A stretch of DNA of 64,000 nucleotides from the NCBI RefSeq assembly GCF_009914755.1, contig NC_060947.1. The stretch is one strand, 5' to 3'. Positions 14,894 through 63,035 of the stretch are shown here, piece by piece. How positions within the stretch are numbered: position 1 is the first letter of the stretch; each line of letters begins with the position of its first letter. The translations under genes were made by a program, and so were the position numbers. This stretch comes from the human T2T-CHM13v2.0 reference genome, Homo sapiens. The notes beneath the pieces were generated by a model. That model was not told the origin of the DNA. It did not search any database and saw only the letters and a list, made by a program, of their open reading frames with translations.

Positions 14894-15092
14894 TTTTCAA
14901 TGTAATGTTAGCCTCTGGGAGTCCTGGCTACATGTAGGGAGAGGTGGTGAGTTTTAATTCCACTTCGCTGTTTGGGTTATTTTTTATCCAATTTTTCTTT
15001 TCAATGTAATGTTAGCCTCTGGGAGTTCTGGCTATACATAGGGAGAGGTGGTGATTTTTAGTTTCACTTCCCTGTTCAGGTTATTTTTTATC
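14894..15092. repeat. Diverged tandem duplication, period about 104 bp, 2 copies
   Basis: tcaatgtaatgttagcctctgggag...ggttattttttatc at 14897 and 15001. Confidence 0.92.
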
Positions 15093-15485
15093 TAGGAGAG
15101 CATTAACACCAAGCACGGGTTCATATTTTGTGCTCAGTACCGTTCCAGTGTTTGACTCCCTGAACTTTCCCTTACTTAGAGAACATTTAAAGGATGTTTG
15201 CTATATTTTAATCACTTTTTTGTAACACATATGTATTGGGATGCCATTGACATCTACCTTGAGGCTTTGGCCTTGAGGTGATGTGTGAGTCTAATTGTAT
15301 AGCTCAAAGCAGAGGACTTCAGTGATTTCAGGGCTATTGTTTTATATGTCAAGGATTTCTGTGAACATCAACAATAATGCAAATTTTTCCCTTTTGTGGC
15401 ATGTACACGCTTGGCATGAAGCTTTCAAACTGCATCTGTCTTCATTTCCTTAAATTTTCTCAAAGTTAGTGAAAGTTAAATGAAT

Positions 15486-15537
15486 TTAAGGGTATGGAAT
15501 TAAAACACAAATTAAGGGTATGGAATTAAAATACAAA
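15486..15537. repeat. 26-bp tandem duplication
   Basis: ttaagggtatggaattaaaa(c/t)acaaa x2. Confidence 0.92.
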
Positions 15538-15866
15538 TATTTGGTTTTTTTTTTGGTTAAGTGGTGTAACCACAGAATGTTTTTGTAACTTTTACAAATA
15601 TATTCATTTGTAATGTTATTATCAAAAATATTCATTGGGGATTATGCAATAAAGCAAGTCTTCAACATCTACATAACATATGAGAGTGTTATTGGTACTT
15701 AATGAAAGCCTATCTTTAAAAGAAGTAGACATTCCTTGAGGGAAAAGTGTTACACAATTGAGAATTTTGATTAGTCTTATTGCTTTACTGTGATTCACCA
15801 TAGACTGATCTCTTAGTAAAATGTTGCTTCACTTTGATTTCAGGAGTCTTCCTACGTCACTGAATA

Positions 15867-15898
15867 ATGAATGAAGATGAGAGGGGAAAAGAGAAGAG
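15867..15898 (+). promoter_or_regulatory. Out-of-frame upstream ATG opening an overlapping uORF (31 aa after splicing; stop TGA at 19024-19026)
   Basis: ATG at 15867 (A at -3) reads MNEDERGKEKR|QSQSKKLSKEIKLDSIISYL*. Confidence 0.7.
15871..15898 (+). CDS. PASD1: PASD1 first coding exon (exon 15844-15898; CDS MKMRGEKRR + 1 nt)
   Basis: tttcag acceptor ends at 15843; ATG at 15871 is preceded by in-frame TAA TGA; GTATGC donor at 15899; 28 nt (phase 1) splices in frame to 18963; matches the recalled PASD1 N-terminus. Confidence 0.93.
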
Positions 15899-16283
15899 GT
15901 ATGCATTCATAACTGACTGACATTTCTGTCAAAGCCCTCTCCCTCGTCCTGTGTTCCCGTTTCACATCTAGCAAAATGCTACTTCCTCAGGGAAGCCTGA
16001 TTCACTCAGAGAAATGTGGTTTCTCCAGTGTTTTTTTTTCATAACTCTCAGCTCCAGCTCTATTATAATACTTAGCACATCACCTGTTTACCTGACAGCC
16101 CTCTTCCTCAAACTGTGTCCTCCATGCCTTGCACAGTGCCTGCCCAGAGCTGACTCTAAGGGTTGTCAAATGACTGACAAGTATACAGTCCCTGATATTT
16201 TTAGAAGACAGTTTTTGAGCCTTGGCTTGCCTACAGCTTAAATTCATTTGTGTTTGAGAAGATAAATTAACTTACTTTTCCAG

Positions 16284-16370
16284 ATCAAACTTCTAAAATA
16301 AATTCAAGTACACTGATCAAAAAGTTTTTGTCAAAAGTTTGCAGTATGATCTGTGGTATCCAATGGATAC
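16284..16370 (+). pseudogene. Candidate decayed remnant of the bHLH exon
   Basis: ttaacttacttttccag|A acceptor; in-phase reading SNF*NKFKYTDQKVFVKSL resembles [21 protein letters not shown]; expected intron position; similarity is weak. Confidence 0.35.
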
Positions 16371-16600
16371 ATTTGATACATTGTGGAATGGCTAAATCCA
16401 GCTAATTGATATATGCATTACCTCACATACTTAACTTTTTCTGATGAGACCACATAAAATCTACTCTCTTAGCAATTCTCAAGTGTACAATATACTGTTA
16501 TTTACTGTAGTCACCATGATGTGCAATAGAACTCTTGAACTTACTCTAACTGAAATCTTATATCCTTTGTCCAACATCTCCCCACTCCTTCATCTCTTAC
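16370..16600 (-). mobile_element. L1MA-type 3' end fragment
   Basis: tacattgtggaatggctaaat...atgcattacctcacatactt...aaaatctactctcttagcaatt. Confidence 0.8.
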
Positions 16601-16609
16601 TTTTGATGA

Positions 16610-17570
<961 letters not shown>

Positions 17571-18962
17571 AAAAGAGGTTCAGTTTAACAACAGGTACTG
17601 AATCCCTGCCATGACCTAAGTACTATGTTAGACGTTGGGGATATGATGAAGAACTGGATATGATGCACACCTTAGAGAATAAACAAAAACAAGTTCATGG
17701 GTAATAGTAAAGTAGAAAAGTCCTTTATGATTTATTTATAAAATACAGTGGTTATCCTTTCTTGGCAATATATGAACTCCCCTCTCTTTTTTATTTCTTT
17801 GAATGAAGTCTAGGAGATGAAAGTTATGAGATGGAACTGGAAGGCAATGGAGAAATTTCTTCAGAAATTGACTATGGAAGAGTGTCATGGGTTGTTTCTT
17901 GAGTTTGAAGAGCTATGCCTAGAATTGAGTTTCCAAGCTGGGACAGTGGTCAGGATCACTGATCCTGACTCATTTATGCAGTTGGCATGGTTTACTTTTC
18001 ATGTTACTCCTATTTCACACCCAGTTACACACCCTATTTTCATTCCCTCATCAGTGAGGGCTCTAAAGCTCTCTTTATGCATGGCCTCCCTCTTACCCAA
18101 CTCTACTCCTAGGAAAGAGTCAGAGACTCATGCCTGTCAAGAAAGCAATAGCCACTGTCAACATTATCCTTGTCATAGGATTTTACATTTTTAATAGAGA
18201 TCAAAGTTGTATGCTATGGGTCTCATTTTTCTGTGAGGAGAAGGAACTAATGTTTATTGACATGAAGCATTAAAATCACTTGAGATTGGAGGGCTGTGTT
18301 AGTGAAGTCCCTTTGCTAGTGAAGTTAGTGGAGTAGGGTGGAGTTGGGGAGGTAGAGAGGAGCACATGTTGACAGCAAAGACTAAGCACAGGAGCAGAAA
18401 CACACTTCTCATTGAGGAAACCAGAAAACCCTGAAGAATGTGATAGGACAGATGGGGGAGAGGACAGTACCAGGAGCTTTGAAGAGATAAAAGATAAGGC
18501 TTGAAGATATTCTAGTTAAGGAACCTTGTGCAAAGCTTAAATAGATGAAGCTAAAGAGTGGAATTTCATAATTTAGTTAGGACTAGGGAAGGGCTTTGGG
18601 AGTCTGGATCTGCTTAGAACCCCTTGACTTACCTGGCAGATTATGGATACTGGGTTTTGGTAGAATTCAAGAGGAAAAAAAGAACTAGAAGTTGAAAAAT
18701 CATAAAATTGTTGGACAGGTCATAATGTGTGTGGTAGAAATTGAGTTGGATGATCTTCAAAGTCTTTTTCAATTCCAAACACTTCTGGGTTTATGATCAT
18801 TTATATACAATTAGTTAGCCAACATCAGATCCTTCATTAGCACTCAGCATTTTCTCATAAGAGTCTTTTCTATAAATTAAGTATAACTTTGAAAAATCTA
18901 ATACCCATAGCTAATCATTTTAATGTGACACTGTTCTGTACTTTCTTCCTTTTTCTAAAAAG

Positions 18963-19051
18963 ACAAAGTCAATCCAAAAAGCTCTCAAAGGAAATTAAAC
19001 TGGATTCCATCATTTCCTACCTATGATTACTTCAACCAAGTGACGCTACAG
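18963..19051 (+). CDS. PASD1: PASD1 coding exon 2 (89 nt) DKVNPKSSQRKLNWIPSFPTYDYFNQVTLQ
   Basis: Pyrimidine tract + AAG acceptor, CAG|GTAAGA donor; W-x-PSF motif homologous to the CLOCK/NPAS2 WKP(S/T)F region preceding PAS-A. Confidence 0.95.
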
Positions 19052-19923: not shown

Positions 19924-20198
19924 TTTTTTTTGTGACACAGGGTCTCACTGTGTCATCCAGGTTGGAGTGCAGTTGTGTGATTGTGGCTCACTGCAGCCTC
20001 AAACTTCTGGGCCCAAGCAATTCCCCCAACTCAGCCCCCAAAGTAGCTGGGACCAGAGGTGCACACTACTATGTTCAGCTCATTATGTTTCATTACGTCT
20101 CACTCTGTCACCCAGGCTGGTCTCCCAAGCTCCTGGGCTCAAGCGATCCACCTTGGCCTCCCAAAGTGCTGGGATTACATGCGTGAGCCACTGCACCT
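19924..20198 (-). mobile_element. Diverged AluJ-like SINE
   Basis: gacacagggtctcactg...ctcctgggctcaagcgatcc...gtgagccactgcacc. Confidence 0.88.
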
Positions 20199-21259
20199 GA
20201 CTCTCTCTCAATTTTATTAGAGGTTTTGTTTTAGGAATCCTATACACAAATATTTGCTAAATAGAGGACTTAAAATGTGTTATGTGAAATCCTGTTACCA
20301 ATTTTATGAAACCAGATGCTTATTTGAAATATTTTAGAAGCTAGACAAGGTATAAATACACCCTAGAGGGATAATTATGTTCACAACTACAGAACATATG
20401 GCATTCAAGTGGAAGGATCAGAATTTCTTGGGTAATTCCCTCCTTTCCACTTTTTTCCCCTCCATTAGGCTTTAATAACTTCCCTAGAAAAGTCTGTTCT
20501 TTATTCTTTATTCATGAAGTTTTTTCTTGAAATAAACAAGCCCAGTCTGGCTAATCAGAGCTGACTTCAACCAGGGAGATGGAAACATCAGGGAATCTGA
20601 GAAGAGGGACAGTAGAGGGCTCTTTCTCTTCACTTTCCAGTTTCATTACAGCTTTGGCCATTCTTTTGAAGCATGAAAGAAAGCGGGGTTTGGAGGGCAA
20701 GAGAGCAAGGTGACTTTGTTTCTTATGGCTTGTATTTCAGAGCAGTGACTTAGCTTTGGATGTTTCCTTCCTGTTTGCCATACTGTTGGTCAAACGTAAC
20801 AGCCTCCTGACATCTGCATAACAACCTACACTGTGCTCTCATGTAGAGTAGCCGATTTCATCCTCATAAGAAGCCTATGATTAACTTAATAATGATGTTG
20901 ATCCCTTTTACTGCAGGAAAGAGGAGACCAAAGCTGGGAGAGCTTGCACCTTGCCCAAATCCAAGACCTGTTGAGTAGCACAGCCGAGTAGCACACCATG
21001 TTTTCTCACTTACACTCCAGCCCATGGGGGTCCAGACTAACTCAGAGCAAACCGTCTCAGTAGAGAATGTGGTAATCAAAATGCCAAAAGCAAGCAGACA
21101 TACAGAAAATGAGTAGAGAAGCAAAGTGCCTTACCAGATCTGCCTAGACTCTTTTCTGAACCTATGTGTTTGGGAGGTCACTTCAGGCATGTGGCAATTT
21201 TGGATGTCATCTTTTGATGTCTAATGGGAAATAGCAAACACCCAGTTTTAAAAGTTTTT

Positions 21260-25980: not shown

Positions 25981-26070
25981 TTATTAGATGGCTTTATGAT
26001 TACACTGAGCACAGATGGAGTGATCATTTGTGTGGCTGAAAACATCTCTTCTCTTCTTGGACATTTACCA
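25981..26070 (+). CDS. PASD1: PASD1 coding exon 3 (90 nt), start of PAS-A: LLDGFMITLSTDGVIICVAENISSLLGHLP
   Basis: cattag acceptor, CCA|GTAAGT donor; LDGF...DG...LLGHLP bHLH-PAS family PAS-A motif. Confidence 0.97.
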
Positions 26071-35249: not shown

Positions 35250-35349
35250 GCTGAGATTGTGGGCAAAAAATTATTAAGCCTTCTGCCTGATGAAGAGAAA
35301 GATGAAGTCTACCAAAAGATTATTCTCAAATTTCCTTTACTAAACTCAG
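35250..35349 (+). CDS. PASD1: PASD1 coding exon 4 (100 nt) AEIVGKKLLSLLPDEEKDEVYQKIILKFPLLNS
   Basis: About 60-nt polypyrimidine tract + CAG acceptor, G|GTATGT donor; homologous to the NPAS2/CLOCK PAS-A segment LPE.EHSEVYKIL. Confidence 0.96.
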
Positions 35350-35801: not shown

Positions 35802-35912
35802 AAACACATATTGAATTTTGCTGTCATTTAAAAAGAGGAAATGTCGAACATGGTGATAGTTCTGCTTACGAAAACGTGAAATTTATTGTGAATGTAAGAG
35901 ATATTTGTAATG
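35802..35912 (+). CDS. PASD1: PASD1 coding exon 5 (111 nt) ETHIEFCCHLKRGNVEHGDSSAYENVKFIVNVRDICN
   Basis: ttttattag acceptor, G|GTAAGC donor, phase 1-1; EFCCH.RG...YE.VKFI motif of CLOCK PAS-A. Confidence 0.96.
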
Positions 35913-37256: not shown

Positions 37257-37384
37257 AGTTTCCTGTGGTCTTTAGTGGCTTGTTTTCCAGCCACCTCTGT
37301 GCTGACTTTGCTGCATGTGTTCCTCAGGAGGATCGGCTTTATCTTGTGGGAAATGTTTGCATTCTCAGGACTCAGCTCCTGCAG
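37257..37384 (+). CDS. PASD1: PASD1 coding exon 6 (128 nt) EFPVVFSGLFSSHLCADFAACVPQEDRLYLVGNVCILRTQLLQ
   Basis: ccttag acceptor, CAG|GTGGGT donor, phase 1-0; lies within ORF 37148-37438. Confidence 0.95.
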
Positions 37385-39767: not shown

Positions 39768-39850
39768 CAACTTTACACTTCAAAGGCAGTCAGTGATGAA
39801 GCTGTACTTACACAAGATTCAGATGAGGAACCTTTTGTGGGAGAGCTCAG
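39768..39850 (+). CDS. PASD1: PASD1 coding exon 7 (83 nt) QLYTSKAVSDEAVLTQDSDEEPFVGEL(S)
   Basis: ttctgcag acceptor, AG|GTGAGA donor, phase 0-2. Confidence 0.94.
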
Positions 39851-52785: not shown

Positions 52786-55332
52786 TAACAACACTTACTG
52801 AGTGCTTACTGTGTATCAGGCATGGTTCAGAGTATTTTAAACACATCTTAACTCATTTCGTCCTCACCACAGTCTATGAGTTTTGAGAATTCTTTATGCA
52901 TTCTGGATACAAGTTATTTGTTCAATATTTGATGTGCAAGTACTTTCTCAAGTCTGGGGCTTCTATTTTCATTCTCAACAGTGTATTTTGCAGAACAAAG
53001 GGTTTTTATTTTAAGAAAGGAATATTTTGTCATTTTTTTTCTCTGATAGATTGCTTTTGGTGACATGTCTTAAGAATTCATTACCGAACCAAGACCACAT
53101 AAACTTTTTTTTTCCCAAAAGTTTTATCATTCTGGATTTTAAGTTTGTATCTACGATCTACTTTGAGTTACTATTTTTATAAGGTGTGAGATTTAGGTCA
53201 AAGTTCATTGTTTTTGGTATATGGATGTCCAGTTGTTCCAGTATCATTTGTTGAAATATGATGTTGTTACCGTCCTGCTCAAAAACTTTCGGTGCTTTCT
53301 CCATTGCACTTGGAATAAAATCCAAACTCCTTTTGTATGCTCTGTAAAGCATACTGCTTTCATGCCTACTTATTTCTGAAACCTCATTTTGTGTTGTATT
53401 CCCTTTTGTCTGTCAGACTTCAGCCTCCCTGGCTTCTCTTTTCTGTGAATTCTCAACACTCTTTTCCAGCGTAGAGCCTTTGCACAAGTTTGTGTCCTCA
53501 ACCTGAAATATTTTTCCATTATGTTGTTCAATAGTTGCCTTATATTGGTTCCCCTAAGTTTATTTTTTATTCTCTCCCCTGGCATTCTGCCCTTTTCCTT
53601 AATCATACTTATTACAATTTTTAACTTTATAGTTATCTCTAAACTAATCACTCATTGTCTGGATTTCCCATGAAACTGTAAGATCCATGAGACTGTGTTT
53701 GCAGTGCCCAGTACTGTGCCTATCCTCATAAAACTTGCTGTCTAGTGCTGAGATGTACAACGAAACGAGAAACTACAATACTACAAGAAACTACACCATT
53801 CTGCATACATGCCATTTAAGTTCATTCACTATTTCTACATGGACTAAAATGTTTTTCCCCACTATATTTTGTATACCTGAATCCTTCTCACCCCTCAAGA
53901 AACAGTTCCATCTTCCCTCTCTGAGAAGTTCCTCCTGGTGCCCAGTTCGGAAGAGCTCTTCCTCCCTGCTTTCTACTCTCGTACTGACACTCTCCACTTT
54001 GCCTTGAGATCACAGAGACTGACTTAGCTCTTCTCCTAGAAAATCAAAAGCTTGCTGAGAGTGGGATTGCATTCAGCTTGTGTCTCCCTCAGTACACAGA
54101 CTAGCTCATTTTATTCAATTAATTCATTTTCTGATTTCTAGAATACAGTCATGTGTTTAGCTATGGGTCCATCTTGCCATTGGAAACTAACAGAGCTGAT
54201 TTTCAGAACAAAAAGAGAAAACAAGGCCAAACTTCAAATCATATCTCATATTTGCACAGCCAACACAGGCCATTAGAGTTTTAATAAATAGCAAAGACAT
54301 AAAACGTTTTCTTTTAACATATGCTGGGACTCGACTGGTCTCTTGTTGCTTTATTTCCCCGCCTGGCTCAATAATAGTCCTATAAAAGTGACAGAAAAAC
54401 CATATACCATGTTACCTTAGAGGGATGACTGAGACAGTTACAAAAATAGGAAGACTCAGATGCCAAATAAAACATGGGATGTTTGGCAAAACCTTAGCAT
54501 GAACATATGTACCTAGTCCAGGCGCTCTGAAGTTACTGGATGTATTAAAAAGAAGTTGGTCCTGCCCTGTTTTATGATGTAAAAGTGTGTGTGTGTTTGT
54601 GTGTGTCTTGTTTCATTGAAGTGAAAGCAAATCATTTTGACTGAATAGTGACAAATATTAATTCATAAAATAGTTTTTAGACTGGAAAAATATTTGATAA
54701 TGGATCCAAATATGAAAATAATGAAATATAAAAGTCAATATAGTACCTTACAAACTGTAGAAATTATATCTGAGCTGTCAGTTCTAGTCCTTCAAAAACC
54801 CTGTCCTCTTTGAGTGAGAGATGCATCCCTATAGAACATCCTGTCCTCAGTTGGAAGGCTTGGCCTTAAGGGCTTATTAGTTAGTGGGAACAGAGCAAAC
54901 TTTCTTTATATCTTACCACACAGTGCTGGTCTTAGTATAGTCTTGTGTCTGATTTATGAATTTCTCCTGGAATGAATTTTCCACAAATATATGATGGGGA
55001 ACTGTGTAGCCTTGACATTCATTCTGCCCATGAATGTCTTTAGTGTTAGCAGCTGGCATCCAGGCATATTCCAGTGACTCACCAACCAAAGCTATATGTT
55101 GCCTTCTCTACGTTTGAAAAGGGGCAGGGGGCGGACCACAGAACACTAATCAGATTCTAAAGTTGCCTTCATGTTTACTTAATATTTCTACACTGCTCAG
55201 AGGAAGCCAATATCAGCAATATTCTTTTTGAGATGACAAAACCTTGAAACTTTTTTGGTTATTTTTATAGCAATAGAGTTTTTGTTGACTTAGTGTTCAT
55301 TTTTCTGTTTTCTCTTTATTATTTGACATTAG

Positions 55333-55432
55333 GGCAACTCTTACCACAGATTAATTGCTCTTCGGGGTACATCAGACTAAGATTTCTACCATGTTGATGA
55401 TTTGTGTTTACTTTTTAAGTGTGATGAATATT
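55333..55432 (+). pseudogene. Fossil (pseudo)exon of the lost PAS-B domain, first part
   Basis: Translates ATLTTD*LLF-[7-nt deletion]-GTSD*DFYHVDDLCLLFKCDEY vs recalled CLOCK [35 protein letters not shown]; pyrimidine tract + AG at 55331-55332, GT at 55433; phases 2-1. Confidence 0.88.
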
Positions 55433-56135
55433 GTGTATTACTTGTTTTTTTTTAATTCTGGTGAGGAAATACCACCAAGTGCTGTTCGGTGTTTTTCCTC
55501 TTTTGATGTGTTTGTGGAAAACTGGTGTAACCAAAAAAAAAGCACATTAGAGTAGTTCAAAATGGCCCTTTAGAGAGTGCTGATTTCTATGAAATGGATA
55601 GATTTTTAGTTGTATATTAGCAGTGATTTGAAGCAAGTCTTTACCATACAGCTAAAAGAAGAATTGAATTTTCTTAGCTATGCCATAAAAGTAATTACCT
55701 GCCAGATAAAAGGGACCTCATGTTATAAATAGTAGAAACTCAACATTTTGTTTTAAATCTTCATTTTCTAATACGTGAAATTATCTGAACTAATCTATAT
55801 GGTGTAGGTTCAGTTATGTATCAGCTTCAGATATATCAGTTATATATATGTTAACCCACAAAAAGAATATGATTTTGAAAGCCATAAGAATCCATATCTG
55901 TGTCTCGTACAGGAAAACAGGAAGGCTGAAATGGAAAGATGCTTATAGACCCTAACTCATTGTCTCATGAAAGTCAGTCCTCTTCATGCTATGGCCAGGG
56001 AGCAGTGAGGGTTGTGGTGCTCAGGATAGGGAATTGGAGAGGAGAAGGGTACATTATTTCCTGAGTCATCTTGTTTCACTTTCTGCCTATCTCTCAATCC
56101 CAACACACACCATAGACGTGTGCACACGCGTACTT

Positions 56136-56176
56136 ACACACACACACACACACACACACACGCGCGCGCGCGTATA
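56136..56176. repeat. (CA)n(CG)n compound alternating purine-pyrimidine microsatellite
   Basis: (AC)12-13 followed by (CG)6 and tata. Confidence 0.93.
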
Positions 56177-57834
56177 CCAGACATTTTCCTTCCCCATCCT
56201 TTTAGGCCCTGAAGTAATAAATTACTCTGCTGGAGAGGACGGGTAAATTCAAATAGCACACTCCTTCCATTCAGAATATCTTAATGAAATATCATACTTT
56301 TCCCCTCACATCAAAAAAGACAGAACTTTTTGTGACTAAAAGTTAATTTCTTAAGCCAAAAGAAAATTTCTGGAAGCAGTCACTCAGGAAGTTTCCTAAA
56401 ACATTTATATGCTAAGATGGTAAACGATGGGATTTGTTGTCCCTTTGTTAGCAGGAAAGCATGATCTTGAGCAGCTTCAGGTCCATCAAGATCTTTCCCA
56501 AGTGAGAACGCAATGGGCTTTTCTGGCTGTAAGTTGTCCATTGCCTCTGCTGTCATTGGAGAGAAAGAAACCAATCACCTGCTCGTGTTTTTTCAAATTA
56601 CAAAATCCATTCTTACATTGTAAAAAAACAGGCTGCTGCTGATTTTGGCTCACAGGCCATAGTTTGGATCCCTTATCTATTCAGTATACTAAGTATCTGT
56701 TCATATCAATATATTATTCTTGATTATATGCAATGACTACATTCTTGATTATAGTCAATGGATATATTCTTATTTTCAACATTTTAAGGAATGTTTAATT
56801 TGTAAAAAGTTAAAAGTCACAGAATGGTTTACCATTCTTATGAATAAAAACAGAATTTCAGGATTTCATATGAATGTTTCTAGTTCATGCTAATTTAATA
56901 ATACACTTTTAAAGAATGCATTTTCTAATTTTTCAATGATTTAGCATGTTTTCAGATTTTATCACCAATATCATCAAATGACTTATTTGCCAAATTTACC
57001 ATTTTCCCCAAACTTATATCTTTGAACTCTGATAAAACTTAATGACTTAGAGTGGATTGAAATATTTTAACAGTTTTTGAAGATACTTAGGATATATTGT
57101 GCTTGGCCAATTTTTCTATTAACATTTTAGGAAAGGTTCCATTTGTCTGTACCCCAGGTCCCTTACTGCTGCAGCTGAATTGAGCAGGGGACAAGAGAGG
57201 GGAACTTGCAATGGGGAAAAGAAACAAAGGAGAGCCAGCATCCAGCACAGCTTGGGCTTCCAACCCCTGAAGTTGGGTTGGGAGGAAACTGGAGTCCATG
57301 AGAGAAGGAAATGAGGAGCTAAGCAGGTGTCTGAAGCCCTCAGGACTCTGAAATCCTTCCTTCCAACGATAGTCTTAAACTCTGCCAACTCAGCATACTG
57401 CAAATTTTATGAATAGCTTAAAAAAACAGGTTTTTGGTAAATCAGTATATTTGGATAATTTGACAGATTGTTACTTTGATTCATGTTCATTCAGTCCATT
57501 TGTCTCCTGGCAAGTTGGCTTTTGGAAAATTTCCTATTAGCAGATTGACTTGGGAAGTTGGTATGCTTCCATACTGAAAAGCAGTGGCTTTCCAGAAGCA
57601 AAACTAAGAAGGAGCCAGGAGTTGGTCAAGATTGCATCCTTCCTGGAAACAATAGTGTGCACAAACTACCTGGCAAAGTTGGTAATAGCTCATAGGTATC
57701 TGCAGTTCATTCTGTGGGGGATGTTAGTGGGTTAAGCTGCGGTGTGAATATACAGTGATGGAATGGATCTTAACATATGAGCCTATCGATTTCAAAGACA
57801 TACACATTTTGGTAATAGAGACAAATGGAGGCAT

Positions 57835-57930
57835 CACATGCCTCTATCAAAACATTTCATGTACCCCATAAATATATACACCTACTATGTACACACAAAA
57901 ATAAAAATAAAAAATAAAAGTAAAAATAAA
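57835..57930 (+). mobile_element. Very short L1 (L1PB/L1MA-like) 3' terminus
   Basis: catgtaccccataaatatatacacctactatgtac + A-rich tail. Confidence 0.8.
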
Positions 57931-60009
57931 CAAATTAGGGCATATTGGACGTGTGACATGACAAAATCAAGGCATTTCTGGCTGGGATTAAACAAAACTA
58001 GAGATTATTTTACTACTCCCTAGTGGTGACACAACTATTGCCCTTACTGGTATAAGGAGTTAGCAGACTGGGTTCATATTCTGGCTTTGTCACTTACTGG
58101 TTGTGAACTTATATGTTATTCATGTTATAAAGCTTTATTTTCCTCATCTATAAAGCAGAGATGATAACAGAGCATATGTCATTGAGTTATTGTAGGATTC
58201 AGAAAGGTAATATGTGTAAGATACAGACCCCTGGGTAGGAACTTGGTAAATGATAGTGTCTTTTCTGTCAGTCAGAGATGAGATTGGTCGTGGGTAGGGA
58301 GTATGGTTAGTTAGCATTTACCTTAAGATTATTGAGGGTGATGATGAAGCATTCACTTCAAGTTACTGATATTCTGAACCGATCCAAATTACATCCATTG
58401 ACTATCTGCCTTTAGCCAAGGTTCCTAAAATGAACTAAATTCATCTTCAAATAATGTAAATCTATTAAGACGACTATCTCCAATTATTTATTTAATAAAA
58501 GGTGGCTATATTGAAAGAGAAGGACCTATCAAATATTTAGAAGGCAGTGTAGTTATTTTGTATTCGGAAGGATCAGGATTTGTACATTGATTCAGAAGAT
58601 ATTTACAAGTGTACATTGTATGCAGAGCCCTGTAGCCACAGAACACGCTTCTCTTCTCCCCCTCAAAGGAGGGTATTGGTCTAGGTGATCTACAGCAATA
58701 GCAACATTCCCAACTCTCTCAGTGCAGTTTCAAGTCACAAAACCCAGGCTCTTGATCCCTAGTCTGCTCATCTTAACACTAGAGCACCTGCTTCTTGGCT
58801 CCAAAGGAATAGAGAAATGATAGTGCATGCAGAACTCATCTTGCAGGAAGACGTTTTCTAGGAGAGAGAATTAAAATTACAAAAGAACAATTGTAAAGCA
58901 AATTACAGTATTATGCCTCTCAAATCATATAGTTAAGTGGAATAGAAACTTAGAGACATAGGGTGGTCAATGAAAGAATGGCTAATGAGGGCATTTGAAC
59001 TGACCACACTTATGGGGACTGTACAGATTACAACGTAATTTTTCTTTTTTTTTTTTAATTTTTCAGAATTTTGTTTTCACTTTTTGCATGTGGAGTTGAG
59101 AAAAATATTTTTCCAGCTTTATTTAGGTATAATTGACCAATGTTGAGGGTATGTGACCCCAGCTTCTGTTCACCTTCCATGGCTTGCCTAGAATACTGAA
59201 TAAAATAGTGGGAGGCTGGGGCAAAGAGAGGCTGTTTCAGGCTTAATTCCCAGGGAGCCACTTAACAGGAATCCTCTTCTAAGAACATAATGACTCTTCA
59301 GGAGAGGTGGGCTTTGGAGCTGCTAGTATCTAGTTATCAAGGATGGCTGAGATGCAGTTGGATTTGAAGGAAAAGATGATACCTGATCCTTGACTCAAGA
59401 TTTTACATTTCAGACAGGGCATGGTAGTGGGCTTCCTCTGAGAGCCTGTAGACAAGCCTTGGTTAGAGTAACCTTAAAAATTAGCTCCATAAACTTTGTT
59501 CATAACCTGCAACCAAGAAGGGAAATCTGGTTTTCTTTCCCTCCATCACTTCAGATTATATCATCTCAGCTGTAAATTAAGTAGGGAGAGACATTTAGGA
59601 TTATATTTTTACTGTCATCAGTTTCCTGACTCTCTGCCACAACTGTTCAAAACACACCTTAGTTTGTACTCCATTGACGTATGAAAGGACAGTATTCATT
59701 TGACATCTTTTTCATATTTACAGTTTCATTTATACAGCAAGTAGAAGTAGATGATATTTTAAGCCAAGAACAACCTTGCATTAAAGTAATTCAGCAGTGT
59801 TGAGCACTTTACCAATGGATATCAAACCTCGGTAAAATATTTAAAATGAAGAGAGAGAAGAAACATGAAGGGCTCGATTTAAGAGTAATATTTTGAGATT
59901 TTACATAATGAGACAGAGGTACTTTTCTTTGTAGAATTAGGTGTTATTTTTACGTAACTACAACTGGCAAAGTGTTCTTTGATCTTTCTCCTTATTTTTA
60001 AAAATTAAG

Positions 60010-60152
60010 TGATACAATTTGGACAAAGAAAGTTGTGCTTGTATCTGTTCCTAACCAAAGGCCAGCAGTGGATATGGCTGCAAACCCTCTGTTACATGTT
60101 ATATCCCATATCCTGAGCCCAAACTCATTATTTACATGCACAAACTAGTTAG
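60010..60152 (+). pseudogene. Fossil (pseudo)exon of the lost PAS-B domain, second part
   Basis: Translates (L)[31 protein letters not shown]-[5-nt deletion]-PKLIIYMHKLV(S) vs recalled NPAS2 [50 protein letters not shown]; AG at 60008-60009, GT at 60153; phases 1-2. Confidence 0.93.
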
Positions 60153-60205
60153 GTATTAAATATTCCCTAATGTTTTTATTTAAAATTGTAAGTGCTTCTC
60201 TGTGA

Positions 60206-60510
<305 letters not shown>

Positions 60511-60721
60511 TGTGACTTTTATGTTCTACATCAAATATTTGCCATTTATACTGGCTTATGGAGAGGCACAAAATGTAAATTCACTGAATAATTTGGAAAA
60601 TATTTACTTGTATTTATATTCTTGATATTTAAGTCGGTGGATTTGAAACAAAACATACTTGCTTCACAACATATTGCTGTCAAAGAGTTTTGTCCAGTAA
60701 AACTTACTGCATCCTTTAATA

Positions 60722-60922
60722 CAGCACTGTCCAGTAGAACTTTCTGTGATGATTGCAGTGGCCTATAATCTGCTTCATCCAAGACGGCAGCCACTAGCTA
60801 CGGAGCACTTGAAATGTGGCTACTGTGACTGAAGACTAAATTTTAAATTGTATTTAATTTAAATTAACTTAAATTTTGATTTAGCCACATGTGTCTAGTG
60901 ACTGCCATATTGGACAATGCAG
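60722..60922. mobile_element. MER3-like hAT-Charlie DNA transposon remnant
   Basis: cagcactgtccagtagaactttctgtgatgat...gagcacttgaaatgtggct...tattggacaatgcag. Confidence 0.82.
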
Positions 60923-62947
60923 CAAGCAATATATTCCTATGTTGTTTATCTCAGATATAAAGTTATGCACTATTTAGAAGCCAATATAAAGGTATTAGAT
61001 TGCTTTTAAGCAACAAATAGAAGCTCCAGCTTGTTCATTAAAATAATTTTGTCAATCCAGGCAGACTTGGGATGAAGGATGTGAAAACATTTTGATTGAA
61101 TTGACTACTAAGTTTTATCTGTTTATTCCTTTATTTACTTAGCAAATATCCATTAAGCACATAGTAATTGCTCTCCATTGTGTGAAGTGCCTGGGATACA
61201 AGAAGTTTAAAGCATGTTCATTGCCTTGAAGAAATTAACCAGGTAGAAAAAGTAGATAGAAAGTAATAAGAAACATTCATATAAGGCAGAAGAGAGTTGA
61301 GAAAGAGGGAAGAGTCTAGGATGACTTGTAGATTTCAGTCTTGAGTGACTGGGTGGAAGGTGGCACTGTTCACCAAGTAGGAGACACTGGAGTGGGGAAC
61401 AGGAGTCTATACCATGTTGAATTGAGGTTAGATGCCCACATGCATGTGCTGAAGGCAGTTGGATATGTGGGTCTACAGCTTGGGAAGAGGTCTTGAGGTA
61501 GAGCTGTGGGAGTCACGCATAGTTGAAGCCAAGGGATACGACATGGTCTGCAAGGCAGATAATATAAAGAAATAACAGAACTCCAAGAGCAGCCCTGAAG
61601 AGGTACCAGCATTTATGATGTGAGAAAACATTCTGTTAGACTAACATAGCTTATAAATTTAGTTGGAGGTTGAAAAATTATTTTAAAAATATGTAATAAT
61701 ATAGGAATTTTGTTTTTAAATAATATGTGGGCAGATTTACAAGTGACTCCATTTATGTTTGTTTCATGACACTGAAAATCAAACCAGTAAGAAATATTTT
61801 ATATTTTACATATTTTATATTTTAATTAAATTAATATTAACAACATAAAATATTAATAAATATATTTAATTAAATATATACTTTTTATATATTTTAAACA
61901 TTCTGTATTCGATATAGTCCAGTTATACATGCAAATGAATGACTTAACTCATTAACTAGTTGTTTTATGCTGTGTAAATCAGTACTTCCTAAATATTACG
62001 TATTTTGGATATCCGAAATACATTTTTCAAGCTCTTAATTTTTTAGTGTTAGAAATAAATGATATAAATAAAATGGATTTTTGTCAGGGTCCTCTGAAAT
62101 ACATAATGGAAAATTTATCTCCATTGGATCAGAATTCACTTTTTGAAACCATGTGGCATAACCCAGGTTTTCTCTTAATTATGTGTCTTCTGAATATGCT
62201 TGGAAAGTTTTATATATATCATTTTGCCACTGTCTTGCTGCTCTGAGGTCTTGTTTTTTATAATATTTATTATCAGACTTTAATTTCTCATTTTGTGGAG
62301 TAATAGGGGCTTTTCTAAAGAAAAACTCGTGAAAACAAAATACATTTCAATAACAGAATCTCAGTTATGAAATTTTTAAGGCTTGAAACACTATTATCAA
62401 TATTAGAAATAAGATTCTCATTCATTCATATTTTCTCACCCATACTTAATTGGTGAAAAGTAAGCTAGTATTTCGACTCTAGTGTGCCATGAAGCTGCAT
62501 CTCACCCTGGGCAAATTTCTATCTAATTTTGATAGAAATGAATTGTTAATGAGCCCCGAGAATGGAGAGTTTCTCTAATTACAGGAAACAAAATTAAATT
62601 GGGCCTAAAGGCATTTTTTTTTTTGTAATTGCAGTTGGTTTAAAAATTGAAAAAGAATATTCACTCAAACACCTTGGCTTTAAAAATATTGGTTTGCTCC
62701 CCACTGTTAAAAAGGCATTGAGACCTGCAGCAAACTTCATTCTAATGAGGGTCCAGATGATTTTTTTTTTTGTAGATGTGTAGAACAACTCTGTGGGAAA
62801 AATGATACCTCAAAGATTAATGATGTTCTGTAGTAGGGAAAATAAAACAAATAGTTTTTATTTGAACCTTTTTATTGTATGATAGAAAATTTTGATTTAA
62901 ATGGCGAGTGAGATATGCTTACCATCTCTCTTTTTTCCTATTTATAG

Positions 62948-63035
62948 TAGCTCTCAAGGTCAAAGAGGACACACTAGCATGAAAGCCGTGTACGTTGAAC
63001 CCGCTGCTGCTGCTGCTGCTGCTGCTATCTCAGAC
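62948..63035 (+). CDS. PASD1: PASD1 coding exon 8 (88 nt) (S)SSQGQRGHTSMKAVYVEPAAAAAAAAISD
   Basis: Pyrimidine tract + TAGTAG acceptor, GAC|GTATGT donor, phase 2-0; includes (GCT)8; matches the recalled PASD1 sequence. Confidence 0.93.
63003..63026 (+). repeat. (GCT)8 coding trinucleotide repeat encoding poly-Ala
   Basis: Eight perfect GCT codons in PASD1 exon 62948-63035. Confidence 0.97.

What the first reader, a model, noticed from the sequence alone, without database searches (positions are those of the whole stretch)
55333..55432. Second fossil PAS-B exon (GTS...YHVDDL...KC.E) upstream, in correct order and phase
Seen: pyrimidine tract + AG, then G GCA ACT CTT ACC ACA GAT TAA TTG CTC TTC GG / GGT ACA TCA GAC TAA GAT TTC TAC CAT GTT GAT GAT TTG TGT TTA CTT TTT AAG TGT GAT GAA TAT T|GT. 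This aligns with recalled CLOCK [37 protein letters not shown], a 107-nt span. It carries a 7-nt deletion, two TAA stops at Tyr positions and a degraded donor (GTGTAT). Its final T joins the TG of the 60010 relic to give TTG (Leu), and its first G completes the AG left by the exon ending at 39850 (Arg). Inference: it is the genomic, intron-flanked partner exon, which argues against a retrocopy origin.
Basis: partly seen in the sequence, partly recalled or inferred. Interest (0 to 1): 0.85.

Follow-up and report, generated by a model that had tools for sequence, protein, structure and literature searches.

The report
Fossil PAS-B exon inside PASD1
A 100-base stretch in a long intron of the human PASD1 gene is the decayed remains of an exon that once encoded part of a second PAS domain, as in its relatives CLOCK and NPAS2, so it shows how PASD1 lost that domain.

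Summary
Confirmed. Window 55333-55432 (+) is a dead exon. It is homologous to the 107-nt PAS-B exon of CLOCK and of the chromosome 2 paralogue I take to be NPAS2.

- **Specificity.** Its 23-residue reading hits only CLOCK chains in the PDB (2 of 2 hits). In the whole human genome it matches only itself and that exact exon in the two paralogues.
- **Chance.** The CLOCK exon peptide scores 69 here. The next best place in the intron scores 38, and the best of 500 shuffles scores 50. A family profile finds one hit in the whole window (i-E 3.6e-6).
- **Junctions.** The acceptor AG, donor GT, first and last bases and both split codons coincide with CLOCK.
- **Lesions.** There is a 7-nt deletion, two TAA codons at Tyr codons, and a weakened donor (GTGTAT).

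Together with the 60010-60152 relic (148 nt in CLOCK), the two lost exons total 255 nt in CLOCK. Skipping both therefore keeps the reading frame, and annotated PASD1 exon 7 joins exon 8 in that way.

It is a new example of a known kind of feature. I found no report of it in seven literature searches, but the key 2015 PASD1 paper could not be read.

The parts
55303..55332 (+). Acceptor region of the relic exon: a pyrimidine-rich tract ending in AG (55331-55332).
   Evidence: One search shows the sequence. In MAFFT alignment A1 the AG is aligned with the acceptor AG of the CLOCK and NPAS2 exons. The contexts are printed.
55333..55432 (+). Relic exon D. It is the homologue of the 107-nt PAS-B exon of CLOCK (C4:58944041-58944147, minus strand) and NPAS2 (C2:101424358-101424464). 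It is now 100 nt and not translatable.
55352..55354 (+). First in-frame TAA. It is aligned with the TAT (Tyr) codon of CLOCK in the ..IIGYLPF.. stretch.
55358..55366 (+). Site of the 7-nt deletion, which shifts the frame. Its exact placement is ambiguous within these bases.
   Evidence: MAFFT gives a single 7-column gap. The best single-gap placement is after 55358 against CLOCK and after 55362 against NPAS2.
55378..55380 (+). Second in-frame TAA. It is aligned with the TAT (Tyr) codon of CLOCK in the ..GTSGYDYY.. stretch.
55433..55438 (+). Degraded donor GTGTAT. The homologous donors are GTAAGT in CLOCK and GTGAGT in NPAS2. Positions +4 and +5 are lost.
60010..60152 (+). Partner relic exon E, the homologue of the 148-nt CLOCK/NPAS2 exon. 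It is now 143 nt, with a 2-nt insertion, a 7-nt deletion, and TGA and TAG stops. It supplies the TG that completes the Leu codon begun by 55432.
39768..39850 (+). Annotated PASD1 exon 7 (83 nt). It has the same length and phase as the CLOCK/NPAS2 exon that precedes exon D, and it ends in AG|gt in all three genes.
62948..63035 (+). Annotated PASD1 exon 8. It is the positional counterpart of the CLOCK/NPAS2 exon that follows exon E. It begins with T in all three genes, giving the junction codon AG|T (Ser).

Best explanation
The stretch is a fossil (vestigial) exon. The ancestor of PASD1 was a CLOCK-family bHLH-PAS gene with the same exon-intron layout as CLOCK and NPAS2. In that ancestor this exon (107 nt) and the next (148 nt) encoded most of the second PAS domain, PAS-B.

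On the lineage to humans, both exons dropped out of the mRNA. The two together are 255 nt, or 85 codons, so skipping both keeps the frame. Skipping either one alone would not. Exon 7 now splices directly to exon 8, and the junction codon AG|T (Ser) is the same codon that CLOCK forms at its E/F junction.

Once unused, the exon decayed. It lost 7 nt, two Tyr codons became TAA, and the donor lost its +4 and +5 matches. Today it most likely does nothing.

What is shown: homology, junctions, lesions and frame arithmetic. What is inferred: that skipping came first, possibly through donor weakening, and decay second; that the loss is ancient; and that it helped turn a CLOCK-like protein into a repressor lacking PAS-B.
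For: - **Specific homology.** PDB hits are CLOCK only, 2 of 2, at chain positions 283-304. These are directly followed by the match of the 60012-60113 relic at 306-336.
- **Genome-wide.** There are 3 matches: the relic itself and the homologous exon in C2 and C4. The C4 exon is 35 of 35 identical to CLOCK chains.
- **Shuffle and profile controls.**
- **Unbiased scan.** A tblastn of all CLOCK/NPAS2 reading-frame fragments against the window recovers this spot at 34.7 bits, among the top non-repeat hits.
- **Gene structure.** Seven consecutive exons match in order and phase. PASD1/CLOCK/NPAS2 lengths are 100/121/121, 111/114/114, 128/119/119, 83/83/83, 100/107/107, 143/148/148 and 88/76/85. Every length difference in the five retained exons is a multiple of 3. 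In the two relics it is not (7 and 5).
- **Coding imprint.** Identity to CLOCK by codon position is 25/34, 22/32 and 15/34 for positions 1, 2 and 3. Over both relics, at sites where CLOCK equals NPAS2, 34/147 differ at positions 1+2 against 14/33 at position 3 (Fisher p 0.03).
- **Domain.** In family members the region encoded by exons D+E lies inside Pfam PAS_11 and PAS_3 matches.
- **Single copy.** The stretch is single-copy at the DNA level.
Against: - No RNA data were available, so non-inclusion in the mRNA rests only on the RefSeq annotation supplied with the task.
- No other mammalian genome could be searched. The time and order of events (skipping before decay, or a lesion first) are therefore inferred.
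- The DNA-only Smith-Waterman test against CLOCK is not overwhelming: 141 against a shuffle maximum of 152 in 300 shuffles.
- Pfam hmmscan of the short fragments found nothing.
- The acceptor is still intact, so occasional inclusion cannot be excluded.
Confidence: 0.9

Rival explanations
1. Chance resemblance of AT-rich intron sequence to a recalled CLOCK peptide.
For: The stretch is short. Pfam found nothing in the fragments. At least one of 300 shuffles beat the DNA-level score against CLOCK.
Against: - 0 of 500 shuffles reach the protein score: 69 against a maximum of 50.
- 62 of 100 bases match, against a maximum of 46 in 2,960 random intron 100-mers.
- The only PDB hits are CLOCK.
- The only genome-wide matches are the homologous exons.
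- The profile HMM gives a single hit in the window.
- Splice junctions and phases coincide exactly.
Confidence: 0.005
2. A piece of a processed CLOCK or NPAS2 retrocopy, or a recent genomic copy or gene conversion from one of them, that landed in the PASD1 intron.
For: The sequence resembles both paralogues about equally: 62 and 60 of 100 bases.
Against: - The two relics are separated by 4,577 nt. Each is bounded by AG and GT exactly at the CLOCK exon borders. A cDNA copy would be contiguous.
- They lie in order, strand and phase between the homologous exons 7 and 8.
- Third codon positions are near saturation, 15/34 identical.
- blastn finds no DNA-level match between the 2.1 kb around the relic and the CLOCK or NPAS2 regions. 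The copy is therefore not recent.
Confidence: 0.01
3. The stretch is still used now and then as a premature-stop ('poison') exon that lowers PASD1 output through nonsense-mediated decay, or it serves some other splicing-regulatory role.
For: The acceptor tract and AG are intact and a GT is still present. The relics have changed less than the neighbouring retained exon 7: 34/147 against 28/52.
Against: - The donor has lost +4 and +5 while the last exon base is not G.
- There is no RefSeq exon here in the annotation given.
- The faster change of exon 7 is explained by positive selection on PASD1 (PMC5737536, passage seen).
- No expression data could be examined.
Confidence: 0.07

Closest known systems
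Human CLOCK, 107-nt PAS-B exon (C4:58944041-58944147, minus strand; encodes positions 270-304 of PDB chain 4f3l_A)
   Same: The acceptor and donor positions are the same. The first base (G), last base (T) and both split codons are the same. 62 of 100 bases match, and 14 of the 22 residues aligned are identical. The neighbouring exons have the same lengths and phases.
   Different: The CLOCK exon is open, has a consensus GTAAGT donor and is part of the mRNA. The relic has a 7-nt deletion, two TAA codons and a GTGTAT donor, and it is not in the annotated PASD1 mRNA. The introns around it are much longer: 15,482 and 4,577 nt against 214 and 2,072 nt in CLOCK, computed from the coordinates.
Human chromosome 2 paralogue, taken to be NPAS2 (name recalled from its map position; exon at C2:101424358-101424464)
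   Same: The exon is 107 nt with the same phases, and 60 of 100 bases match. The encoded peptide is 31 of 35 identical to CLOCK.
   Different: Its first base is A and its last is C. It is intact and in use.
Unnamed full-length CLOCK-family proteins of a third clade (P0054, P0090, P0039, P0049, P0065, P0067), probably non-mammalian PASD1
   Same: The retained part of human PASD1 scores best against them: 127-116 bits against 114-97 for the other two clades. It sits among them in the tree (100/100). P0054 has HLH, PAS and PAS_11, so it keeps the domain whose exons are dead in humans. A salamander transcript whose best hit is annotated PASD1 is listed with bHLH + PAS-A + PAS-B (PMC13663383, Table 2, seen).
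   Different: The AU test does not reject human PASD1 grouping with the CLOCK clade instead (p 0.126). PAS-B is so conserved in all clades that the relic matches all of them equally, 41-44 of 77.

Membership tests
CLOCK/NPAS2-type PAS-B exon (homologous exon) | Sequence homology specific to the CLOCK family. | tested here: met
   The PDB hits are CLOCK only, 2 of 2. By contrast the intact CLOCK exon also hits BMAL1, EPAS1 and HIF1A. The genome-wide matches are only the homologous exons.
CLOCK/NPAS2-type PAS-B exon (homologous exon) | The same exon borders, phase, order and strand relative to neighbouring homologous exons. | tested here: met
   AG and GT are aligned, the split codons are Arg and Leu, and the relic is flanked by the 83-nt exon upstream and the 148-nt-type relic downstream.
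Functional coding exon | An open reading frame in the gene's phase. | tested here: not met
   There are two TAA codons and a 7-nt frame-shifting deletion.
Functional coding exon | A usable donor site and inclusion in the mRNA. | tested here: inconclusive
   The donor GTGTAT matches 5 of 9 consensus positions against 7 of 9 in CLOCK and NPAS2. I counted this by eye from the contexts, against a consensus recalled from memory. The supplied RefSeq annotation has no exon here. No RNA data were available.
Pfam PAS_11 / PAS_3 domain | A match to the profile above the gathering score. | tested here: not met
   hmmscan of the 23-, 32- and 34-residue readings gave 0 families. The fragments are short and broken. 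Intact family members match PAS_11 at 87.8-92.4 bits over the region that includes exons D+E.
Processed pseudogene / retrocopy | Contiguous cDNA-like sequence without introns. | tested here: not met
   Relics D and E are 4,577 nt apart, and each has AG/GT at the CLOCK exon borders.

The most novel reading that the evidence does not exclude
Human PASD1 is the stripped-down orthologue of a third, ancient CLOCK-family paralogue that is still a complete bHLH-PAS-A-PAS-B protein in amphibians and birds. In the mammalian line a single frame-preserving double exon skip removed PAS-B, and its two fossils survive in intron 7. That skip would have helped convert a CLOCK-like activator into a testis-specific, fast-evolving repressor of CLOCK:BMAL1. 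The shared lesions in the fossils could date that switch, and the relics may still be spliced in occasionally as premature-stop exons.
Probability: 0.45. Interest if true: 0.6.

Novelty: new member of a known kind. Interest (0 to 1): 0.45.

Why it matters
PASD1 is known as a CLOCK relative that represses CLOCK:BMAL1 and has a single PAS domain. I saw this in passages of PMC2364759, PMC6406328 and PMC6310821.

The fossil exon gives physical evidence of how that architecture arose. PASD1 derives from a gene with the same exon layout as CLOCK, not from a retrocopy, and it lost PAS-B by skipping two exons in frame.

The lesions in the relic are the 7-nt deletion, the two Tyr-to-TAA changes and the donor changes. 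They are ready-made markers: scoring them across mammals would date the loss and show whether any lineage still has a PAS-B-containing PASD1.

It is also a clean teaching case. Abandoned exons can remain recognisable while the exons that stayed in the mRNA change faster under positive selection.

Tried and rejected
- **Pfam on the short readings:** no hit.
- **The search for homologous proteins with the partner relic:** no candidates.
- **First tblastn scans:** swamped by Alu and L1 matches until the listed repeats were masked (then 33).
- **Global DNA identity with free gaps:** uninformative, because flanking intron controls also gave 44-70%. I replaced it with a single-gap test.
- **blastn of 2.1 kb around the relic against the CLOCK and NPAS2 regions:** 0 hits.
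- **Assigning the relic to one of the three family clades by its own sequence:** impossible, at 41-44 of 77 identical to all.
- **My idea that exon 7 was a truncated version of the CLOCK exon:** rejected. Both are 83 nt.
- **Search for a fossil of the helix-loop-helix region in 15000-19000:** only noise-level scores of 26-31.
- **Rfam scan of 54500-61000:** nothing.
- **Michael et al. 2015 (Mol Cell):** not held.
- **AU test:** did not reject PASD1 grouping with the CLOCK clade (p 0.126).

Full report
**What is there**

A pyrimidine-rich tract ends in AG. Then comes G, ten codons that translate ATLTTD*LLF, a change of frame, and GTSD*DFYHVDDLCLLFKCDEY plus a final T. This is followed by gtgtat. 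The stretch lies in the 23,097-nt intron between annotated PASD1 exons 39768-39850 and 62948-63035.

**Is it more than chance?**

- I searched the 23-residue reading, with X at the stop, against all PDB chain sequences. It returned two hits of 177,635 distinct sequences. Both are CLOCK, at positions 283-304 of chain 4f3l_A (E 0.0097).
- The neighbouring relic 60012-60113 matches positions 306-336 of the same chain (E 3e-8). The two pieces are therefore contiguous in CLOCK, with one residue left for the split codon.
- The same 23 residues searched against the whole 3.1-Gb genome in six frames gave three matches: the relic itself, C2:101424398-460 and C4:58944042-107. These two lie 2-2.5 kb upstream of the places hit by the 60012 relic.
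- The C4 exon is 35 of 35 identical to the CLOCK chains. The C2 exon is 31 of 35 identical. I call the C2 gene NPAS2 from its recalled map position.
- The CLOCK exon peptide was aligned (BLOSUM62, local) to all six frames of the intron. It scores 69 at 55366-55431 and at most 38 elsewhere. In 500 dinucleotide-preserving shuffles the best-of-six-frames score had mean 35.5, sd 3.3 and maximum 50.
- With a single 7-nt gap, 62 of 100 bases match CLOCK and 60 of 100 match NPAS2. For 2,960 random 100-mers from the same intron the mean was 30.6, sd 3.8 and maximum 46.
- The 5' part alone, before the deletion, matches at 16 of 26 bases (binomial p 0.001).
- I built a profile HMM from the exon-D segment of 31 distinct family members and ran it over all six frames of the whole 64-kb window. 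It finds one significant place, 55366-55428 (i-E 3.6e-6). The next best has i-E 6.
- An unbiased tblastn of every reading-frame fragment of the CLOCK and NPAS2 regions against the window, after masking the listed repeats, recovers this spot at 34.7 bits. Above it are the 60010 relic, PASD1 exons 25981-26070 and 35802-35912, and unlisted repeat fragments.
- The weakest test is DNA-only Smith-Waterman. CLOCK scored 141 against a shuffle mean of 103.6, sd 8.8 and maximum 152 in 300 shuffles, so at least one shuffle exceeded it. NPAS2 scored 123 against a maximum of 116.

**Junctions and gene structure**

I fetched 70 kb of CLOCK and 50 kb of NPAS2. I defined their exons by mutual conservation and splice signals.

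| Exon | PASD1 (window) | PASD1 nt | CLOCK nt | NPAS2 nt |
|---|---|---|---|---|
| 4 | 35250-35349 | 100 | 121 | 121 |
| 5 | 35802-35912 | 111 | 114 | 114 |
| 6 | 37257-37384 | 128 | 119 | 119 |
| 7 | 39768-39850 | 83 | 83 | 83 |
| relic D | 55333-55432 | 100 | 107 | 107 |
| relic E | 60010-60152 | 143 | 148 | 148 |
| 8 | 62948-63035 | 88 | 76 | 85 |

- In the five retained exons every length difference is a multiple of three. In the two relics it is not (7 and 5).
- The 83-nt exon ends in AG|gt in all three genes.
- Exon D begins with G in CLOCK and in the relic, and with A in NPAS2. All three give Arg.
- Exon D ends with T in CLOCK and the relic, and with C in NPAS2. The next exon begins TA, TG and TG respectively. 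All three give Leu.
- MAFFT aligns the acceptor AG and the donor GT of the three sequences with a single 7-column gap.

**How the exon was lost**

In CLOCK, 107 + 148 = 255 nt, or 85 codons. Skipping either exon alone would shift the frame, while skipping both keeps it.

Annotated PASD1 does exactly that. Exon 7 (ending AG) joins exon 8 (beginning T) to give Ser. CLOCK forms the same AG|T Ser codon between its 148-nt exon and the next one.

The relic's donor is ATT|GTGTAT. CLOCK has ACT|GTAAGT and NPAS2 has ACC|GTGAGT. The last exon base is not G in any of the three, so pairing with U1 depends on the intron side. There the relic has lost +4 and +5. I infer, but cannot show, that weakening of this donor contributed to the skipping.

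In family members the D+E region lies inside the Pfam PAS_11 and PAS_3 matches, for example 274-377 in P0087. The loss therefore removed most of PAS-B. Exon 7, which in CLOCK encodes the start of that domain, stayed in the mRNA.

**History**

The relic keeps a coding imprint. Identity to CLOCK is 25/34, 22/32 and 15/34 at codon positions 1, 2 and 3.

Over both relics, at sites where CLOCK and NPAS2 agree, 34 of 147 position-1+2 sites differ (Jukes-Cantor distance 0.28), against 14 of 33 position-3 sites (Fisher p 0.03). The exons were therefore under protein-level constraint for part of the time after PASD1 separated from its paralogues, and then decayed.

A distance of about 0.28 substitutions per site is, by recalled neutral rates for the human lineage, of the order of 100 million years or more. 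This is a rough inference, not a measurement.

The retained exon 7 differs at 28 of 52 such sites, more than the dead relics (p 9e-5). This fits the report that PASD1 has one of the largest numbers of positively selected codons among 331 selected primate genes (PMC5737536, passage seen). It assumes that the ungapped alignment of exon 7 is right.

**An older origin than a recent copy of CLOCK**

- A search of 1.84 billion representative proteins with the partner relic returned 95 animal CLOCK-family proteins.
- Sixteen long proteins among these hits were put in a tree with the retained part of human PASD1. Fourteen form three well-supported clades: CLOCK-type, NPAS2-type and a third one. The other two, P0036 and the outgroup P0095, fall outside them.
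- The retained part of human PASD1 scores best against the third clade. It sits inside that clade in a maximum-likelihood tree (100/100).
- Its branch is extremely long, however. An AU test does not reject grouping it with the CLOCK clade (p 0.126).
- A third-clade member has HLH, PAS and PAS_11.
- A salamander transcript whose best hit is a newt protein annotated PASD1 is tabulated as bHLH + PAS-A + PAS-B, 751 aa (PMC13663383, Table 2, seen).
- Chicken PASD1 lies next to GPR50 and MAMLD1 on chromosome 4 (PMC9911055, Table 1, seen). From recall, these are also its neighbours on human Xq28.
- Together this suggests that PASD1 is an old third paralogue that lost PAS-B on the way to humans. PAS-B is about 90% identical across all clades, so the relic itself (41-44 of 77 identical to every member) cannot be assigned to a clade.

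**Rivals**

- **Chance** is excluded by the controls above.
- **A retrocopy or recent copy** is excluded. The two relics have separate, correctly placed splice signals and are 4,577 nt apart. Third codon positions are near saturation. blastn finds no DNA-level similarity around the relic, and the stretch is single-copy.
- **Residual use as a premature-stop exon** cannot be excluded without RNA data. The acceptor is intact, but the donor is poor and no exon is annotated here.

**Novelty**

It is in print that PASD1 is closest to NPAS2 and CLOCK (PMC2364759, passages). It is also in print that it represses CLOCK:BMAL1 through a region like CLOCK exon 19 (PMC6406328 and PMC6310821, passages).

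Seven full-text searches found no paper describing PAS-B relics in the PASD1 intron. The key paper, Michael et al. 2015, is not held, and I consulted no supplements, so prior mention there cannot be excluded.

The finding is a real and neat example of a known kind of feature, a vestigial exon left by domain loss.

**Limits**

- There were no other vertebrate genomes and no expression data.
- The neutral-rate dating and the Xq28 neighbours are recalled.
- Splice-site strength was judged by eye against the recalled consensus.

Noticed in passing
window 39768-39850: Retained PASD1 exon 7 has the same 83-nt length and phase as the CLOCK/NPAS2 exon that encodes the start of PAS-B. It differs from CLOCK at 28 of 52 conserved codon-position-1+2 sites, more than the abandoned relics (34 of 147). 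A live exon has therefore changed faster than the dead ones, which is consistent with positive selection on PASD1.
   Followed up: partly
window 60010-60152: When the partner relic is read with frame corrections (a 2-nt insertion near 60094 and a 7-nt deletion near 60110), it stays alignable to CLOCK to its last codon, and it ends in AG|gt like CLOCK. Its acceptor tract is purine-interrupted (aaaaattaag).
   Followed up: partly
window 15871-19051: The first coding exon of PASD1 ends right after ..GEKRR. The CLOCK bHLH exon has the similar stretch ..SEKKRRD.. but goes on through the helix-loop-helix. No fossil of the helix-loop-helix part was detectable in 15000-19000 (local scores 26-31). PASD1 exon 18963-19051 aligns weakly (score 40) with the CLOCK exon that follows the bHLH exon.
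   Followed up: partly
window 39851-62947: The three PASD1 introns around the relics are 15,482, 4,577 and 2,795 nt. In CLOCK they are 214, 2,072 and 547 nt. Much of the extra DNA is Alu and L1-like repeat, including fragments not in the supplied mask list, for example near 60412-60531 and 20111-20226.
   Followed up: no
L018 (C2:101422756-101422874): The NPAS2 exon homologous to PASD1 exon 6 appears to use a GC donor (..TTAAAG|gcaagt) rather than GT.
   Followed up: no
proteins P0023, P0063, P0080, P0083, P0085, P0086, P0089, P0091, P0093, P0094: Among the library hits there is a further group of CLOCK-like PAS-B sequences with ..MQKGEGTSC.. and ..LQTRFYITY.. It is distinct from the three clades analysed, and its origin is unknown.
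   Followed up: no
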